NCBI RefSeq assembly: GCF_048403405.1
Contig: NZ_CP183129.1
Length of the DNA: 64,000 bases
Direction: 5' to 3' (one strand)
Source: Escherichia coli
Lineage (GTDB): Bacteria; Pseudomonadota; Gammaproteobacteria; Enterobacterales; Enterobacteriaceae
The position numbers are program-made. Below are positions 51,701-57,700 of this stretch, one piece after another (position 1 is the stretch's first letter; each line of letters starts with the position of its first letter).

Positions 51701-54700
51701 TCCTCGAAGAAGCAAAGAATATCATCAATAACAGTGACGGGGATGCGGTAAAAACTGACCAGCAAATTCAGCAAAGCAGTGGCGATAAAGGGGTTGTATG
51801 GATAGGCGGGAAACAGCGCGGTGGGGTTGGTCAGCCTGCGATTCAGCCGGCGCAGGATTTTGCACAGGCCGGCTTTAATATCATGAACGGTCTGCCGGCA
51901 ACCAGTACGGCCCCGGTGCCGGCCGGCCAGTGTAACGGAGCCGCTTGCAGGCGCTTTGCCAACAGTGAGGAAGCCGCTCAGGTGGTCACACAGGTGCTGG
52001 GCAGCAAATCGGTCCGCACCTGCACCAATCCGGCGGATTGTCAGAGCGGCGGTGAGGCGGAGCAACCGGGCAGTTCCCAGCCAGGAACCGGGCTGGCACC
52101 GGTGCTGGAGACCACCACCCGGGAAAATTTGGAACAGCTGCATAAACTGGTGAACAGCCGGGGCGCGGTCGGGGCGGCAGAGTTGGCGAAACTGAAAACC
52201 GGCAGCCTGACGGTCTCCCGGGGGGTGATTGAAGCGCTGCGCCGGGATCCGGATAAAACGGCATTAACACAGCGTCTGGCCGGTGAGCTGGCGATGGCGG
52301 ACACGATGGAGCTGGCGCTGACGATGCGCCGGATGCTGATCACCGGCCAGGGGGAGCCGAATGCCGGTAATTTTCCGAAAGCCCAGGAGATCGGTAACCA
52401 GTCGGTTGACCAGCTGGATCGCGAAATCGGGATGCTGCAAACGGAAATGGAAGTGCGTAAATCCATTGCCAATAACGCGATGCTGACGGTGATTGAGCGT
52501 GATCAGCAACGGACACAGGCGAACCCTGCCACCCAGACCCCAGATAATACGGATGTGCGTGTACAGGGACTGGAGCAAAACAGTGACACCGGAGGACGTT
52601 AAATGACGAAAGGAAAAACCGGGCGCCGGTTATGGCCGGTGCTGAAAGTAACCGGGCTGACCCTGCTCAGTATGGTGGTGTTGCTGGCGGTGGCTCAGCT
52701 GGGGCTGAGTTATTACGGTGAGGCGGACAGTCTGCGCCGGGCGTTTTACCGTGCCCGCTGGTTCTGGCTGGTCTGGCGGTGTGTGTTGTACGGAGCCGTG
52801 GCGGTTGGATTATGGAAACTGTATCACCACCCGAAAGTCAGTGAGACGGCCCGGCGCAGTCTGAAGCGCAGCGGGCTGGCGATGGCCGCCTTTGTGGCGG
52901 TGAGTGAATGGTCAGTCTGGGCGGGAGGTGACGGCTTATGATGACAAACAGTTATCTCGAGTATTTTCTCACGCTGCTGGCCTGGGTGGTGAATAACGGA
53001 TTGTGGTCGGTACTGACCAGCACCGGGCTGTTTGCGCTGCCGCTGGTCTTTAAAGTGCTGGGGATCTGGCTGAAAGTGCGGGAAGAGGGGGAGGATGAGG
53101 GTAACAAAGGTTCACTGGCAATTGTGCGTATCGAGAACGCGCTTTACGGCGCCTTTGTGGTGATCCTGTTTTGTTGTGTGCCGTTGATGGAGGTGAGTGT
53201 CAGTACCCTGCAATTTGATACCAGCCGGACCAAAACCTGCGGCACCTGGACCCCGGTGAAGCCGGCGGAATCCGGTTACAGCGGCGTGGTGTCGTCACTG
53301 GATAATCAGACAGCCAAAATCCCGCTGTGGTGGATGCTGGTACATAAGCTGTCGAAAGGGGTGACTCAGGCGGCGGTGGCCAGCATTCCGTGCCGGCCGG
53401 ATTTGCGTCAGGTGCGTTTTGAGGTGCAGCACAGCAACATTAAAAATCCGGCGCTGGCTGCCGCACTTCAGGATTTTACGGATGACTGTTACTCACGTGC
53501 CCTGTATGACTGGAAAGCGAAAGATCAGGGAAAAACACAGGATGAAAAAACGTTACAGGATATCACCTGGATAGGCTCGGCCACCTTTATGAAAGGGGAA
53601 TATCATCAGATCCAGTCACGGACACCGCGGGCGGGCTTTCCCTGGGATGCCGACCGGGATGACGGGTATGCGAATGTCAACGGCAACGGTTACCCGACCT
53701 GTTATCAGTGGTGGAATGATGCGAATGCAGGGTTACTGAAACTTGTCAAAGAGCAGACCGATGAAGGGATGTGGCTGCGTGCCCGGGCGGCGATGAAGCT
53801 GATTAATAAAAACTCGAAAGAGTTTGAGGAGGCCATCGTCCGCCGGCTGGTGAGTCCGGCGAATCTGGATGTCTCCGGCGGCCGGGTATACCGGGGATAC
53901 GGGGGTAATGCGGATATGACGGTGATGAATGAGCTGGCCAGAATGGGAGGGGTAGCCGGGACTTCGCTGGCGTCACTGGGGGCATTCCCTGCCTTTGATA
54001 CGATGCGACAGTCCTTACCGATGGTGCAGGGGCTGATGTTAATGGCGGTGTATATCATGATCCCGATGGTGCTGATGTTTTCGGCGTATGAATTTAAGAC
54101 GGCGATAACGGTGACGTTTGTGATATTTGCGCTGAACTTTCTGACATTCTGGTGGGAGCTGGCACGCTGGATAGACAGCTGGATGATGGAGGCACTGTAT
54201 AATTCCGATACGCACAGTCAGTGGAATATGAACGGGCTTCAGAACACGTCTGATGATGTCATTATGAACCTGGTAATGGGAACGATGTTTTTGGTGTTGC
54301 CGGCGTTGTGGTTGACAGCATTTGGTTGGGCTGGAGCTAAAGTTGGGTCCGAGCTAGGTAATATGACATCTAACGCGACTTCACCTGCGCATAGTGCGGG
54401 GGGAAAGGAGGACAGTTAGCAGAACAAGCTATTTCTAAAAAAGTTAACTAATAATATTTTGAAGCCAGCTGCAAAATTTAGTTTTGTGGCTGGCTAATCT
54501 TCGTCAATATTTATTCCGTTCATATAATATCCAAAACCTTGGTTGCCATTTCTAAAGTCGTCACTATTGCCAACGAGATTGGATTGCCATTCATTATTGT
54601 TATCAGTGGATTGAATGTTATTTCCTGAAGAAATATCAATGTGTTCTATTACAGAAAATAAAATCACCAACGCTCCAAAGGTAAATAGGATGTACAAACT

Positions 54701-57700
54701 GAAATAAGCCAGTAACGCGATGACTGCGAGAGTTATAGATACCAGTGGAATATGCCCCAGCCAACCCGGCATATTTTTGCTTTTGGCGCTTGCCACACAG
54801 TTCTTATCGAAAGCCTTCAATTTTTTGATTAGCCATTTTGCTTTATAAGCTGCTTTTATGCCCCAGCGTTCTCCTCTGGAAGCGGCTGTTTTATCACTCA
54901 TTTCCCCCTCCGGTAATCAGTGAGTCTGATTTATCTCATGCTTGTCGTCTATCGTTAATACAATTTTAGGTCGATTTTTAATCATTGTCTACATCTTGTG
55001 AGTTATGCACATATCCACGGTCACCAAGCCAGTGCAACCCGATGCCAACAAGCAATCGGGTAAACGGGAGCGTACAGGGCATCGGCCCTGATGGTGGCGG
55101 TGGGTATGTGTATAACTTTTTTGTTGCCTTCATATAAAAATCTTATTCTTTCATCTGGATGGATTTATTGAATTTGATTTTTTATGTCAGTTTAAGTAAG
55201 TTTTTAATATGTATCCGAGTCCTTGTATATAGGAGATGATAATATGAATTTTATTTTTTGGTTTGTGGTCTTAATAGGGGCGGGATATTTGTGGAGGAGG
55301 AGGGGTTGGTTCAGTAAAATAAGGAAGCAATACTCAAGGAGAAAAACAACATTAAATGGTAACAAAGGATGTTTATATAATAAAAAAAATGACAATGATG
55401 CTTTGGAAGGTAATGGGGATTGTAATAATTTTTATTCTGAGAATAAAGAAAGTTTCTTTTGGTTAATGATTGAGAGAGGTATTAAATTTTACAGAAAAGA
55501 ATATTTGACTACGATTACTGAAAAAAATATCATGATAAGTTAGTGAGCTGGTTTGGTGAGAAATGTTATATACATTGTCAGGTTAGTTTAGGGAGTTTAT
55601 TTATATTCCCAAAACAAAAAAATTTTACTGATGAAGAACAAAAACGTTTTTTTTCTGTTTGTAATAGAATGTCCTTGGATTTTATTTTAACATTTAAAAC
55701 TAATATGCCCTTCTTACGTGTTTCTGTTGACTCTATGAAAAATAAACCGCCTGTTTGGGATGTTTATGATAAATCCAAATAAAAACATATCTGATTGTTG
55801 AGTTTTCGTGATTAAAGATGGCATTGATTATTAATACGATGAAGAACCAACAAGGGGATATTTAATAAAGAGAAAAAGGAGGATGTAAAATATTCTCCTT
55901 TTTCTTTATCGGGTATTGACGAAAAAAGAAAGTTTGATTAAATTTACCACGTTACACCGTTGCTTAATGCAACATTGCCAATGCTTCGGTTGTCTGAGAG
56001 AAGCGCCTACGGGTGACAACAATGCCAATCCGGCAATCTGAGAGGAACGCCTACGGGTGATTGCCACTGCCAATCCTCGGGTCATCTGAGACGAGGGCCT
56101 ACGGGCGATGACAGAACTCCGTTCGTCCTTGAAATCGACGGAGGGTGATAACAGAATAGCGTTATCATCAGGATTAACTGCACTTCAGTGACCATGTCAC
56201 AGCTATCCGGTCACTCGGATATCCACAAAAAAGCAGAGTATGCGATAACGTGTATCTGCCTCTTCTGATGTGTTCTGACGAATACGTCCTGCTTTCTGCA
56301 ACCTTTGTATGCCCGGTATGACGCGTTTCCATTGCGCAGCTTTGGAAAGCGGCATCTTCGGAGCAATACATTGAGCAGCAGAATGATGGGCGTGCGTCAC
56401 TTTCGTCAAGTGAAACGAAGACAAAGTGACGCACGCAAGTGCATACGCTCAGAACGCTTCAATACTGGTCTTACAGCAAAACTGACAATCTGACAGACAT
56501 GTAATGCATTGCTCAGAACGGCTGAAAGTCTTTCAACGCTCAACGTTTATATGATGATAAAAACGTATAACATTATGAAAAAAGGAGAAAAAACGACACG
56601 ATACCAAGGCGACGTCAGGAAACTGACGGACGGAGGTGCCCTGATAACGGGGGCCGGTCTGATGACCGCAAACAGTTCAGAGAACTGATTTGATACCTCT
56701 CAACAACTCAACCTTTTATCGCCCCGGTGCTCAGGTATCTGTCAGGTCGCAGGATGCGCAATATAAAACCGTCGCGCCGGGAAAAGGTAACCAGTTGAGA
56801 GCGAAAGAGGCGGAGAATCAGAGAATGTCCAGAAGAGCAAAAGCCCTGTCCCGTGAAATGCATATCCTTGCACGTCAGGCCGGAGGGAGCTTTAAAACCA
56901 TTGCAGACCGGGTCAAAATTGCAGAACGGGTTGCGGCAGAGCTGGCCGGGTTGAATATTCAGATACGATCTGTTGAGCAACTGAAATCCCGCCATATTGA
57001 AATGTATATCCATGCCCGCAGAGAACAGAATATCAGTTTACGCAGCTGTCAAAACGAAATGTCGGCTATCCGGGCGATATTTCGTGTTGCCGGACGTCAT
57101 AAACTGGCTGACCCTAAACATGAGCGCCTCAGTAATGAGGCGCTGGGGCTTTCAGGTGCCAGCAGGGCTGGCACCCGTACCGCGATATCGGACGAGCGCT
57201 TTCACGAAGCGCTCGCTCGGATTGAGCCTTATGATCAGGGGGTGGCATTAACTATGCAGTTATCCCGTAGTCTGGGATTGAGAAATGAAGAAGCCGTGCA
57301 GTCAGTAAAATCATTACGGACCTGGCAACAGGCGCTTAAAAACGGTAAAGATCGCGTTCATGTGGTTTTTGGGACAAAAGGAGGCAGACCCCGTGAAGCA
57401 TTAGTGCCGGATAAAGCCCGTGTATTAACATTAATTAATAAAGCCATTGAATATGCGGATAAACATAACGGTTATTTAATTAATCGTCCGTCATTACATT
57501 CTGCCAAAGATCGTTATATTAATGTGATGCGACGGATAGGCGGATTTATTCACGAAGAATCAAATCATGGTTTACGGTATGCCTATGCTCAGGATGTTGA
57601 AAAATATTATCTCAGTCAGGGATTCAGTCAAAAGGAAGCCTATGCATTAACCTCCATGGATTTAGGGCATGGTGACGGTCGTGGCGATTATATTAAACGG

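What the first reader, a model, noticed from the sequence alone, without database searches (positions are those of the whole stretch)
54250..55782. AT-rich mini-island abutting the TraG-like gene, with a possibly frameshifted DUF2726-like gene
GC drops sharply within the last ~50 codons of the TraG-like gene, suggesting its 3' end was replaced by incoming DNA. The island carries a two-TM membrane protein gene on the opposite strand and two adjacent ORFs in different frames, the second with weak similarity to a DUF2726-type fold. Small membrane proteins and nuclease-like fragments at ICE cargo boundaries are sometimes immunity, exclusion or defence components.
Basis: partly seen in the sequence, partly recalled or inferred. 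Interest (0 to 1): 0.3.

Follow-up and report, generated by a model that had tools for sequence, protein, structure and literature searches.

The report
ICE swap cassette plus dead nuclease gene
The flagged AT-rich stretch at the end of a conjugative element's transfer operon holds a decayed nuclease gene (ordinary) and, more interestingly, a short swappable cassette covering the tail ends of the TraG channel protein and a small membrane protein, which vary together and may decide which related elements a cell excludes.

Summary
The window is ICEPm1, about 99.9% identical to copies in Proteus mirabilis, Providencia stuartii and 12 E. coli chromosomes.

The two ORFs are one dead DUF2726 (PD-(D/E)XK nuclease-fold) gene. 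An intact 213-aa orthologue sits in the same slot of a sister ICE. The window copy has an A8-to-A7 frameshift (55521-55527) and a 102-nt deletion that removes the conserved ELDD core.

The "mini-island" is not one import.
- The opposite-strand membrane gene (DUF3742) is ICE backbone, convergent with traG in 44 of 85 sequences examined.
- GC does not fall inside traG (0.52 against 0.54). It falls at the stop codon.

The last ~45 traG codons, the spacer and the last ~50 DUF3742 codons form a ~370-bp allelic cassette. It is about 60% identical between ICEs whose flanks are 95-100% identical.

TraG-tail and DUF3742-tail types co-vary: about 23 and 27 types in 14 backbone clades (ARI 0.63-0.83, p=0.0005). 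Twenty-five Xenorhabdus loci with no adjacent DUF3742 gene have a single conserved TraG tail.

I infer a cognate recognition pair analogous to TraG/Eex entry exclusion. This is untested.

The parts
52938..54419 (+). traG (TraG_N / VirB6-like inner-membrane T4SS protein), 493 aa as read. The last gene of the MPF_G transfer operon.
   Evidence: Pfam TraG_N E=1.3e-76, profile positions 1-459 of 462 over aa 8-482. Annotated as a 504-aa protein in E. coli 2547. ICEclc Orf53587 is the essential VirB6-like counterpart (PMC10018362).
54398..54403 (+). G6 homopolymer. Most other copies have G7, which gives a 504-aa TraG ending ...GGKGGQLAEQAISKKVN (stop would be at 54452). In the window the product ends ...GGKEDS.
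   Evidence: Window compared with L001 and L005. The run is G7 in 10 of the 13 other ICEPm1 copies checked, G6 also in L106, G8 in L006, and the pattern was not found in L102.
54280..54650 (.). Allelic variable cassette: the last ~45 codons of traG, the 74-nt spacer and the last ~50 codons of the DUF3742 gene (convergent 3' ends). Its edges lie in the DNA that encodes the last hydrophobic helix of each protein.
   Evidence: Sliding identity to L004 runs 1.00, then 0.51-0.60, then 0.96-1.00. L002 shares the same left breakpoint. Between-type identity is 0.56-0.64 whatever the backbone identity. Five types (A-E) were seen among close relatives, with 1:1 TraG-tail and DUF3742-tail pairing.
54463..54495 (.). 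Hairpin between the convergent genes, probably a bidirectional terminator. It overlaps the DUF3742 stop codon.
   Evidence: A 15-bp stem. Folding energy -21.9 kcal/mol (z=-3.2) on the plus strand and -14.7 kcal/mol (z=-4.0) on the minus strand.
54494..54901 (-). DUF3742-family small membrane protein, 135 aa. It has a basic N-terminus (net +9), a hydrophobic hairpin (aa 45-91) and an acidic Gly/aromatic-rich variable tail (net -8).
   Evidence: Pfam DUF3742 at 26.5 bits against a cut-off of 27.2. Thirteen of 16 close relatives match at E<0.01. RefSeq names it a DUF3742 family protein. Charge and hydropathy. The tail falls into discrete types while the N-terminal part is nearly invariant.
54963..54991 (-). 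Sigma-70-like promoter candidate (TAGACA-17-TAAAAT) 62 nt upstream of the DUF3742 start.
   Evidence: Consensus scan, 10 of 12 matches. The region's total count is not above that of shuffles. The hexamer region is conserved across cassette types A, B and E and partly in C and D.
55000..55118 (+). Conserved GC-richer structured element: a long imperfect inverted repeat enclosing three small hairpins, followed by a T-run on the plus strand. Its role is unknown. It may be the final terminator or insulator of the transfer operon.
   Evidence: Folding energy -67.7 kcal/mol, z=-6.8 on the plus strand and z=-4.1 on the minus strand. It is 85-95% conserved in L002, where the flanking coding DNA is not. 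No Rfam match. It is single-copy in the window.
55244..55782 (+). DUF2726 (PD-(D/E)XK nuclease-fold, N-terminal TM anchor) pseudogene, read as two ORFs: 55244-55543 and 55543-55782.
   Evidence: The repaired fusion is 96% identical to intact P0001 (213 aa). P0001 matches DUF2726 at E=1.1e-19. P0001 occupies the same slot in L004.
55521..55527 (+). A7 run, the site of the -1 frameshift. The intact orthologue has A8.
   Evidence: DNA alignment. The run is A7 or A6 in all 13 other ICEPm1 copies checked and A8 only in L004.
55697..55705 (+). Junction of a 102-nt in-frame deletion between two copies of the 9-bp repeat AAACTAATA. It removes 34 aa (TNNNIICIIELDDESHNREDRKKRDDMLNYLMTE), including the invariant E-L-D-D...H core.
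   Evidence: The deletion is present in all ICEPm1 copies checked.
55869..55907 (+). An 18-bp-stem hairpin followed by TTTAT. A terminator-like end of the DUF2726 transcription unit.
   Evidence: Fold of 55783-55915: -39.6 kcal/mol, z=-6.3.

Best explanation
The flagged stretch is the distal end of the MPF_G-type transfer operon of ICEPm1. It consists of three pieces with different histories.

(1) A ~370-bp allelic cassette (54280-54650). It spans the convergent 3' ends of traG and of the backbone gene for a small DUF3742 membrane protein. Related ICEs exchange it as one unit by homologous recombination, using the conserved DNA that encodes the last hydrophobic helix of each protein as arms. 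It therefore replaces the basic, probably cytoplasmic C-terminal tail of TraG and the acidic tail of DUF3742 together.

Most likely mechanism (inferred, not shown): the two tails are a cognate recognition pair. DUF3742 would be made from its own promoter in every ICE-bearing cell. It would recognise the TraG tail of an incoming T4SS of the same type and block redundant transfer. That is an entry-exclusion system analogous to TraG/Eex of SXT/R391 and TraG/TraS of F. The many cassette types would then be exclusion groups.

(2) The DUF3742 N-terminal part, its promoter region and a conserved hairpin element (54651-55122). This is ordinary backbone.

(3) A cargo-hotspot gene (55244-55782) for a membrane-anchored DUF2726 PD-(D/E)XK nuclease-fold protein. 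In the ICEPm1 lineage it is a fixed pseudogene, with an A8-to-A7 frameshift and a 102-nt deletion of the conserved core, and it has no function here.
For: Identity of the element:
- 99.9% identical over 3.8 kb to 12 E. coli chromosomes. TraG is 100% identical over the 490 residues matched to P. mirabilis ATCC 29906. The DNA is ~100% identical to Providencia stuartii.
- The surrounding genes are the nrp-like NRPS/PKS operon, TIGR037xx T4SS genes and taaP.

Pseudogene (shown).

Cassette (shown):
- The breakpoint profile against L004 is 100%, then ~55%, then 97%.
- Between-type DNA identity is 0.56-0.64 irrespective of backbone identity of 0.80-0.98. Within type B it is 0.95 and 0.77.
- Low GC is found in all alleles.

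Co-variation (shown):
- Types A-E pair 1:1.
- Over 39 non-redundant Enterobacterales loci the partial Mantel correlation is r=0.47, p<0.0005, controlling for both cores.
- Over 40 loci there are about 23 TraG-tail types and 27 DUF3742-tail types in 14 backbone clades. ARI is 0.63-0.83 against 0.21-0.27 when permuted within clades, p=0.0005.
- The same cassette type occurs on backbones only 75-85% identical (L047, L048, L020).

Natural control: 25 Xenorhabdus loci have no DUF3742 gene or other conserved small membrane ORF downstream. Their TraG tail is of one type, with mean identity 0.88, equal to the core at 0.87. In DUF3742-bearing pairs with cores at least 0.94 identical, the median tail identity is 0.41.

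Dispensability for the T4SS: traG is intact where DUF3742 is absent (Xenorhabdus) or reduced to a remnant (L014, L084).

Topology and charge: DUF3742 has an N-terminus of +9 and a tail of -8. The TraG tail follows the last TM and is net positive.

Precedent:
- In SXT/R391, traG and eex co-evolve as a functional unit (PMC2791158).
- In F, traS lies immediately after traG and TraS is proposed to interact with TraG (PMC7690428).
Against: - No experiment links DUF3742 to exclusion, and no paper in the held library assigns it any function.
- The two tails are only ~75 nt apart, so concordance is partly expected from physical linkage alone.
- DUF3742 shows no sequence similarity to F TraS (hhalign probability 0.65%).
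- One metagenome-assembled genome (MAG) of Serratia liquefaciens carries two ICE copies with the same cassette type (L041 and L044). If both are in one cell, this argues against strict exclusion.
- A DUF3742 gene elsewhere in the Xenorhabdus elements cannot be ruled out, because only ±4 kb was seen.
- Multiple ICEclc-type elements per genome are common (PMC10732049). That is compatible either with many exclusion groups or with no exclusion at all.
- The promoter assignment rests on a consensus match that is not enriched over shuffles.
Confidence: 0.5

Rival explanations
1. Cis-partnership without exclusion. DUF3742 is an accessory subunit or regulator of the element's own T4SS that binds the TraG tail in the same cell. 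The tails co-evolve for mutual fit, possibly to avoid cross-talk or inhibition by co-resident related ICEs (a donor-side fertility-inhibition-type conflict), and they do not control entry.
For: The co-variation and the Xenorhabdus control apply equally here. Both tails are predicted to be on the cytoplasmic side of the same membrane. The gene is conserved next to traG across Enterobacterales and Pseudomonas.
Against: Simple structural fit gives no reason for dozens of discrete, anciently diverged types to be exchanged among near-identical backbones. traG and the T4SS genes persist intact where DUF3742 is missing or truncated. The gene has the opposite orientation to the transfer operon and its own promoter-like site.
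Confidence: 0.25
2. Neutral fast evolution plus linkage. Both C-terminal tails are poorly constrained, disordered ends. They diverge quickly, and concordance of types merely reflects their being 75 nt apart.
For: The tails are low-complexity and rich in Gly, Ser and Asn. Adjacency makes co-inheritance the default.
Against: The TraG tail is as conserved as the core in 25 loci that lack the adjacent DUF3742 gene. Within a type the tails are conserved as well as or better than the flanks (L004 against L093: cassette 0.95, traG core 0.95, DUF3742 core 0.88). Identity profiles show sharp recombination breakpoints rather than graded decay. All tails keep a shared motif, [FY]R.G..G.G.Y, with an acidic end.
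Confidence: 0.15
3. One AT-rich island of incoming DNA overwrote the traG 3' end and brought in a membrane protein plus a nuclease as an immunity or defence pair.
For: The region is AT-rich. The traG tail differs from relatives. The slot after DUF3742 does hold defence cargo elsewhere, for example Gabija GajA at E=1e-243 in L091.
Against: DUF3742 is backbone in 44 of 85 sequences examined and in Pseudomonas ICEs. Homology to L002 resumes between the two supposed island genes, at 54830-55120. The DUF2726 gene is shared with L004, whose cassette is of a different type, so the pieces move independently. The low GC is common to all alleles.
Confidence: 0.07
4. ORF1 and ORF2 are expressed as one functional protein, by programmed -1 ribosomal frameshifting or transcriptional slippage on A_AAA_AAT.
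For: The A7 run forms an X_XXY_YYZ-type heptamer in the ORF1 frame. This is read directly from the sequence.
Against: Even a frameshifted product lacks the 34 residues that carry the family-invariant ELDD...H core. Two ICEPm1 copies have A6, which shows drift. The intact orthologues need no frameshift.
Confidence: 0.03

Closest known systems
TraG/Eex entry exclusion of SXT/R391 ICEs and IncA/IncC plasmids
   Same: A small inner-membrane protein is paired with the VirB6-like TraG. The gene for that protein is unusually polymorphic for a core gene, and the traG and eex trees match (PMC2791158). The determinants are reported to be cytoplasmic; I know this only from the paper's title, cited. The tails here are also predicted to be cytoplasmic.
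   Different: DUF3742 was not compared with Eex because no Eex sequence was available here. The TraG here is the short, TraG_N-only protein of MPF_G systems (~504 aa). The variable determinant is its extreme C-terminal tail. From memory, and not checked here, the SXT determinant is an internal three-residue site. About 23 or more types were seen, against two exclusion groups in SXT/R391. The two variable parts are physically fused into one swappable cassette by the convergent gene orientation. No phenotype is known.
TraG/TraS entry exclusion of F-like plasmids
   Same: traS lies immediately after traG (NC_002483). [quoted passage not shown]
   Different: No sequence similarity (hhalign probability 0.65%). 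traS is co-directional with traG and, per that review, under TraJ control. The DUF3742 gene is convergent with traG and has its own promoter-like site.
Pfam DUF2726 (PF10881), a PD-(D/E)XK / restriction-endonuclease-fold family
   Same: The intact orthologues P0001, P0002, P0004 and P0008 match at E of 1e-18 to 1e-21. The family is classed as a PD-(D/E)XK phosphodiesterase, often near mobile elements (PMC3424549). It is also described as a restriction-endonuclease-fold DNase fused to defence-type domains (PMC3710099).
   Different: The window copy is frameshifted and lacks the conserved core. It scores below the gathering threshold even after repair (21.0 against 24.7 bits). This subgroup has an N-terminal TM anchor and a fixed position next to the T4SS genes of Morganellaceae ICEs.
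ICEPm1 of Proteus mirabilis (the ICEHin1056 / ICEclc / PAPI-1 super-family, MPF_G T4SS)
   Same: Near-identity to copies in P. mirabilis, Providencia stuartii and E. coli. The gene content matches. ICEPm1 is described as a 92.6-kb modular ICE that is nearly identical across these genera (PMC11278526).
   Different: Nothing material. This copy carries the minority G6 allele in the traG tail.

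Membership tests
Pfam DUF2726 (PF10881) | HMM match at or above the gathering score (24.7 bits) | tested here: not met
   ORF2 alone scores 13.6 bits. The repaired ORF1+ORF2 fusion scores 21.0 bits, E=3e-4. The intact orthologue P0001 scores 70.8 bits. The window copy is therefore a degraded relative, not a scoring member.
Pfam DUF2726 (PF10881) | Conserved core motifs of the PD-(D/E)XK fold (D146 ... E162-L-D-D ... H168 in P0001 numbering) | tested here: not met
   D146 is kept (SLDF). The E-L-D-D...H block lies inside the 34-aa deletion.
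Pfam DUF2726 (PF10881) | PD-(D/E)XK three-dimensional fold | tested here: inconclusive
   The AF2 model of P0001, built from 9 sequences, has pLDDT 43.8, too poor for a fold search. Its order of secondary-structure elements (alpha-beta-beta-alpha-beta-beta-alpha-beta) is compatible with the fold. The PDB sequence search found nothing.
Pfam DUF3742 (PF12553) | HMM match at or above the gathering score (27.2 bits) | tested here: inconclusive
   26.5 bits, E=7e-6, just under the cut-off. Thirteen of 16 close relatives match at E<0.01. RefSeq names WP_004239694.1 a DUF3742 family protein.
Pfam DUF3742 (PF12553) | Conserved position: convergent with, and immediately downstream of, the TraG_N gene of MPF_G ICEs | tested here: met
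   Found in 44 of 85 sequences examined (84 loci plus the window), with gaps of 1-156 nt and one of 576 nt. The arrangement is the same in two Pseudomonas ICEs (PMC8895235).
TraG_N (PF07916) / VirB6-like T4SS protein | Full-length HMM match and several TM helices | tested here: met
   258.9 bits, profile positions 1-459 of 462. Hydrophobic segments lie at about 25-47, 59-93, 359-408 and 440-464.
Entry-exclusion pair (TraG + Eex/TraS type) | A small inner-membrane protein encoded next to traG | tested here: met
   A 135-aa protein with a 47-residue hydrophobic hairpin, 75 nt from the traG stop.
Entry-exclusion pair (TraG + Eex/TraS type) | Polymorphism of the small protein that co-varies with a region of TraG | tested here: met
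   with the Xenorhabdus control. Physical linkage is a confounder.
Entry-exclusion pair (TraG + Eex/TraS type) | Sequence homology to a known exclusion protein | tested here: not met
   No similarity to F TraS. SXT Eex and IncC EexC could not be fetched. Known Eex families are mutually unrelated (my own knowledge), so this lowers membership of those families, not the analogy.
Entry-exclusion pair (TraG + Eex/TraS type) | Cognate-specific reduction of transfer into cells that express the small protein | not testable with these tools
   Needs mating assays.
Entry-exclusion pair (TraG + Eex/TraS type) | Expression in non-transferring, ICE-bearing cells, independent of the transfer operon | tested here: inconclusive
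   The orientation is opposite to the operon and there is a conserved sigma-70-like site. There are no expression data.
ICEPm1 | Near-identity and shared gene content with the P. mirabilis element | tested here: met
   Description in PMC11278526.

The most novel reading that the evidence does not exclude
DUF3742 together with the C-terminal tail of the short TraG is the so-far undescribed entry-exclusion (self-recognition) system of the MPF_G ICE super-family, which includes ICEclc, PAPI-1/pKLC102, ICEHin1056, SPI-7 and ICEPm1. Its specificity would be encoded in a ~370-bp cassette that recombination shuffles among elements, producing dozens of exclusion groups. That would explain how several related ICEs can co-reside in one genome.
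Probability: 0.35. Interest if true: 0.7.

Novelty: new variant of a known kind. Interest (0 to 1): 0.45.

Why it matters
The DUF2726 pseudogene itself is ordinary decay of an accessory gene.

The cassette matters for four reasons.
- The ICEclc/PAPI-1/ICEPm1 super-family is among the most widespread ICE groups in Proteobacteria. I found no exclusion system described for it in the held literature.
- A TraG-tail/DUF3742 specificity module would give DUF3742 a function.
- It would offer a typing scheme (exclusion groups) that predicts which ICEs can stack in one host. It could also explain co-resident pairs such as ICEPm1 with ICEPm3.
- It points to a simple, decisive mating experiment.

The cassette also illustrates how convergent gene orientation can fuse two specificity determinants into one recombination unit.

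Tried and rejected
- The AlphaFold2 model of the intact DUF2726 orthologue was too poor to use (pLDDT 43.8), so I ran no fold search.
- The PDB sequence search with the DUF2726 profile returned only a spurious TM match.
- PADLOC gave nothing for DUF2726, DUF3742, the integrase or the SGNH protein. NCBIfam gave nothing for DUF2726 or DUF3742.
- Rfam at the permissive threshold found nothing credible in 54350-55950.
- No plasmid carries this region.
- The intrinsic-terminator scan found none, although folding shows two strong hairpins.
- The Marrero & Waldor papers (PMC1951900, PMC1855829) are not held. F (as AP001918) and pVCR94 (KF551948) are not in the collections. F was obtained as NC_002483.
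- One search used a protein lacking its start codon and was repeated correctly.
- A co-residence test (whether ICEs in one genome carry different cassette types) had only three same-genome pairs. Two differ and one MAG pair is the same, so the test has no power.
- I considered predicting a complex from a fused TraG-tail/DUF3742 chain. I dropped it because the tool returns no contact or PAE information.
- I considered programmed frameshifting at the A-run and rejected it because of the core deletion.

Full report
**Context**

The window is an ICEPm1-type integrative conjugative element.
- A 3.8-kb query around the finding is 99.3-99.9% identical to 12 complete E. coli chromosomes and to no plasmid.
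- A scan of species-representative genomes returns P. mirabilis ATCC 29906 (TraG 100% identical over the 490 residues matched) and Providencia stuartii NCTC11800.
- In E. coli 2547 the surrounding annotation is a yersiniabactin-like NRPS/PKS operon, the TIGR037xx "integrating conjugative element" T4SS genes, taaP, a TraG_N gene, a DUF3742 gene, two hypothetical genes, an integrase-domain gene, an SGNH hydrolase gene and ArdC.
- This fits the published description of ICEPm1 as a 92.6-kb modular ICE that is nearly identical in Proteus, Providencia and Morganella (PMC11278526).

**Checking the observation**

The AT-rich stretch is real. GC by segment:

| Segment | GC |
|---|---|
| traG-DUF3742 spacer (54420-54493) | 0.31 |
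| 3' half of the DUF3742 gene (54494-54650) | 0.33 |
| 5' half of the DUF3742 gene (54651-54901) | 0.42 |
| Divergent intergenic region (54902-55243) | 0.39 |
| The two ORFs (55244-55782) | 0.29 |
| traG codons 1-447 | 0.54 |

Three details of the observation need correcting.
- GC does not fall inside traG. Its last 47 codons are 0.52 GC. The drop starts at the stop codon.
- Low GC is common elsewhere in this window, where the 5th percentile of 200-nt windows is 0.29.
- The frame change is at 55521-55527, not at ~55540.

The minus-strand ORF and the two plus-strand ORFs in different frames are as described.

**The two ORFs are one dead DUF2726 gene**

- ORF2 alone matches Pfam DUF2726 at E=0.056, over profile positions 19-72.
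- Three-frame translation shows that ORF2's frame is open back to 55522. Adding one A to the A7 run at 55521-55527 joins the frames.
- The repaired 179-aa product matches DUF2726 at E=3e-4, over profile positions 2-72 and across the junction.
- A search of 5.8 billion proteins with the repaired product found intact single-frame relatives. P0001 is 213 aa and 96% identical to the query in alignment. P0002 and P0004-P0010 are 49-75% identical. All carry PF10881, with E of 1e-18 to 1e-21 on re-scanning.
- P0001 is encoded at exactly the same place in a sister ICE (L004): taaP-like gene, DUF1525, TraU, TraG_N of 504 aa, a convergent 132-aa gene, then DUF2726.
- The DNA alignment shows two lesions in the window. 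One is A7 where L004 has A8. The other is a 102-nt in-frame deletion between two copies of AAACTAATA, with its junction at 55697-55705. The deletion removes TNNNIICIIELDDESHNREDRKKRDDMLNYLMTE, which includes the family-invariant E-L-D-D...H block.
- Both lesions are present in all 13 other ICEPm1 copies I checked, from E. coli, Proteus, Providencia and ten further assemblies. Two of those have drifted to A6.

DUF2726 is classed as a PD-(D/E)XK / restriction-endonuclease-fold domain (PMC3424549, PMC3710099). The gene is therefore a fixed pseudogene of a membrane-anchored nuclease-fold protein. Programmed frameshifting cannot rescue it, because the core is deleted.

The slot it occupies is a cargo hotspot.
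- A homologue (42% identical by BLASTP) is intact at the same position in a Providencia rettgeri-type ICE (L085-87), and another is present in L095.
- Gabija sits there in L091 and L092 (GajA E=1e-243).
- A helix-turn-helix (HTH) gene followed by a contact-dependent growth inhibition (CDI) / two-partner-secretion locus sits there in mouse E. coli ICEs.

**The membrane-protein gene is backbone**

- It matches DUF3742 just under threshold, 26.5 against 27.2 bits. RefSeq names it a DUF3742 family protein.
- A homologue lies convergent with, and immediately downstream of, traG in 44 of 85 sequences examined. The same arrangement is seen in two Pseudomonas syringae ICEs (PMC8895235).
- No paper in the held library assigns DUF3742 a function.

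**The traG 3' end was indeed replaced, but as part of an allelic cassette**

Sliding identity between the window and L004 is 0.97-1.00 up to ~54250, 0.51-0.60 from 54300 to 54600, and 0.96-1.00 again from 54659. L002 (E. coli M9), whose traG DNA is ~94% identical, has the same left breakpoint.

The divergent block comprises the last ~45 codons of traG, the spacer and the last ~50 codons of the DUF3742 gene. Its edges lie in the DNA that encodes the last hydrophobic helix of each protein.

The replaced TraG tail is still homologous, since the TraG_N profile is matched to position 459 of 462. This is allelic exchange, not truncation by foreign DNA.

Among eight close relatives I distinguish five cassette types, A to E.
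- Between types, DNA identity is 0.56-0.64 whether the backbones are 80% or 98% identical.
- Within type B, identity is 0.95 and 0.77.
- Cassette GC is 0.37-0.42 in every allele. The composition is a family trait, not a mark of recent import.

**Co-variation of the two tails**

- TraG-tail type and DUF3742-tail type pair 1:1 in types A to E. This includes type B on three different backbones, and type E shared with DUF3742 remnants in Erwinia psidii and Edwardsiella ictaluri, whose TraG is only ~65% identical.
- Across 40 Enterobacterales loci, TraG cores that are 94-98% identical often carry tails ~30% identical. Whenever the TraG tails are at least 0.84 identical, the DUF3742 tails are at least 0.82 identical, with one exception.
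- The partial Mantel correlation of tail identities is 0.47 (p<0.0005), controlling for both cores, over 39 non-redundant loci.
- Clustering gives about 23 TraG-tail types and 27 DUF3742-tail types in 14 backbone clades. ARI is 0.63-0.83, against 0.21-0.27 when types are permuted within clades (p=0.0005). Some types are shared across clades.
- Among 16 close homologues of the window protein, the N-terminal region and the hydrophobic hairpin are nearly invariant. The tail falls into four discrete types that keep a common [FY]R.G..G.G.Y...D/E-rich end.

**A natural control**

Twenty-five Xenorhabdus loci encode an intact 504-aa TraG but have no DUF3742 gene, nor any other conserved small membrane ORF, within 900 nt downstream. 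In these loci the TraG tail is of a single type, with mean identity 0.88. That is as conserved as the core, at 0.87. In DUF3742-bearing pairs with cores at least 0.94 identical, the median tail identity is 0.41.

Tail hypervariability therefore goes with the presence of the adjacent partner. This argues against mere lack of constraint. The same loci show that the T4SS gene set persists without an adjacent DUF3742 gene.

**Mechanism (inferred)**

- DUF3742 has a strongly basic N-terminus (+9), a 47-residue hydrophobic stretch that fits a helical hairpin, and an acidic tail (-8).
- The TraG tail follows the last TM helix (aa 440-464) and is net basic.
- By the positive-inside rule (general knowledge), both tails are cytoplasmic.
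- The DUF3742 gene faces the transfer operon. It has a conserved sigma-70-like site 62 nt upstream, though this is only a consensus match and is not enriched over shuffles.
- A 15-bp hairpin lies between the convergent genes.

The closest functional precedents are these.
- TraG/Eex of SXT/R391. The traG and eex trees coincide and define exclusion groups (PMC2791158).
- TraG/TraS of F. traS directly follows traG, and TraS is thought to recognise the cognate TraG (PMC7690428).

I therefore propose that DUF3742 and the TraG tail form an entry-exclusion-like recognition pair and that the cassette types are exclusion groups.

This is analogy, not membership. DUF3742 has no similarity to TraS, SXT Eex could not be compared, and no phenotype exists. 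I found no exclusion system described for ICEclc-type T4SSs. The ICEclc study lists the TraG_N protein Orf53587 as essential and VirB6-like and never mentions exclusion.

Rivals are a purely cis TraG-DUF3742 partnership, and neutral divergence plus linkage. The adjacency of the two tails means that linkage alone explains part of the concordance.

**Verdict**

- The frameshifted DUF2726 gene is confirmed and is in fact doubly broken. This is ordinary.
- The "mini-island" dissolves into backbone, a cargo hotspot and a recombining specificity cassette.
- The cassette is the part worth following up. It is a plausible but untested candidate for the exclusion determinant of a very large ICE super-family.

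Noticed in passing
window 55958-56115, 56593-56744, 56690-57733, 57669-58352, 58392-58551: Two full-length STAXI RNA motifs (112 and 123 bits) flank a unit made of an EFASI RNA motif (78 bits), an Integrase_1/Phage_int_SAM_2 integrase-domain gene and a DUF459/SGNH hydrolase gene. The arrangement looks like a small module bracketed by direct STAXI copies, lying just after the DUF2726 pseudogene.
   Followed up: partly
window 54398-54403: The traG G-run is G6 here. That truncates and alters the last 14 residues of the TraG tail (...GGKEDS* instead of ...GGKGGQLAEQAISKKVN*). Ten of the 13 other ICEPm1 copies have G7, one (L106) also has G6, one (L006) has G8, and in one (L102) the pattern was not found. 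This is either a real polymorphism in a possible specificity determinant or a homopolymer sequencing error.
   Followed up: partly
window 55000-55118: A conserved, strongly structured ~120-nt element lies between the DUF3742 and DUF2726 genes. Folding energy is -67.7 kcal/mol (z=-6.8) on the plus strand, with a T-run after it. It is better conserved against L002 than the neighbouring coding DNA. It has no Rfam match, is single-copy, and is confined to the ICEPm1/L002/L004/L093 subclade. Only one compensatory pair appears among four sequences. It could be the transfer operon's final terminator or insulator, an sRNA, or a single-stranded-DNA element.
   Followed up: partly
L091 and L092, 1-2481 (next to the DUF3742 gene): In type-C relatives the slot that holds the DUF2726 pseudogene here carries a Gabija system (GajA E=1e-243, followed by a UvrD-type helicase). 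L085-87 carry an AcrVA2-like gene and a CDI/two-partner-secretion locus a few kb further on. The position just beyond DUF3742 is a defence and competition cargo hotspot.
   Followed up: partly
L050-L080 (Xenorhabdus spp.): Many Xenorhabdus genomes carry two to four copies of a TraG_N-bearing element (for example X. griffiniae, X. indica and X. hominickii). Their TraG tails are conserved and no DUF3742 gene lies downstream. Several copies have truncated traG (L066, L077, L078, L082).
   Followed up: partly
L014 5580-5798 and L084 5582-5800: Erwinia psidii and Edwardsiella ictaluri ICEs keep only a 72-aa C-terminal remnant of a type-E DUF3742 gene, with no N-terminus and no TM hairpin. It lies beside an intact traG whose tail is also of type E.
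   Followed up: no
window 1-3700 (by correspondence with L088 1-3800): The start of the window corresponds to a decayed patch in E. coli 2547. It contains a frameshifted ArdC gene, ClbS/DfsB and integrase-core fragments, an IS110 transposase gene, a broken IS3 and a DUF2857 fragment. A second, intact ArdC gene lies beyond the finding.
   Followed up: no
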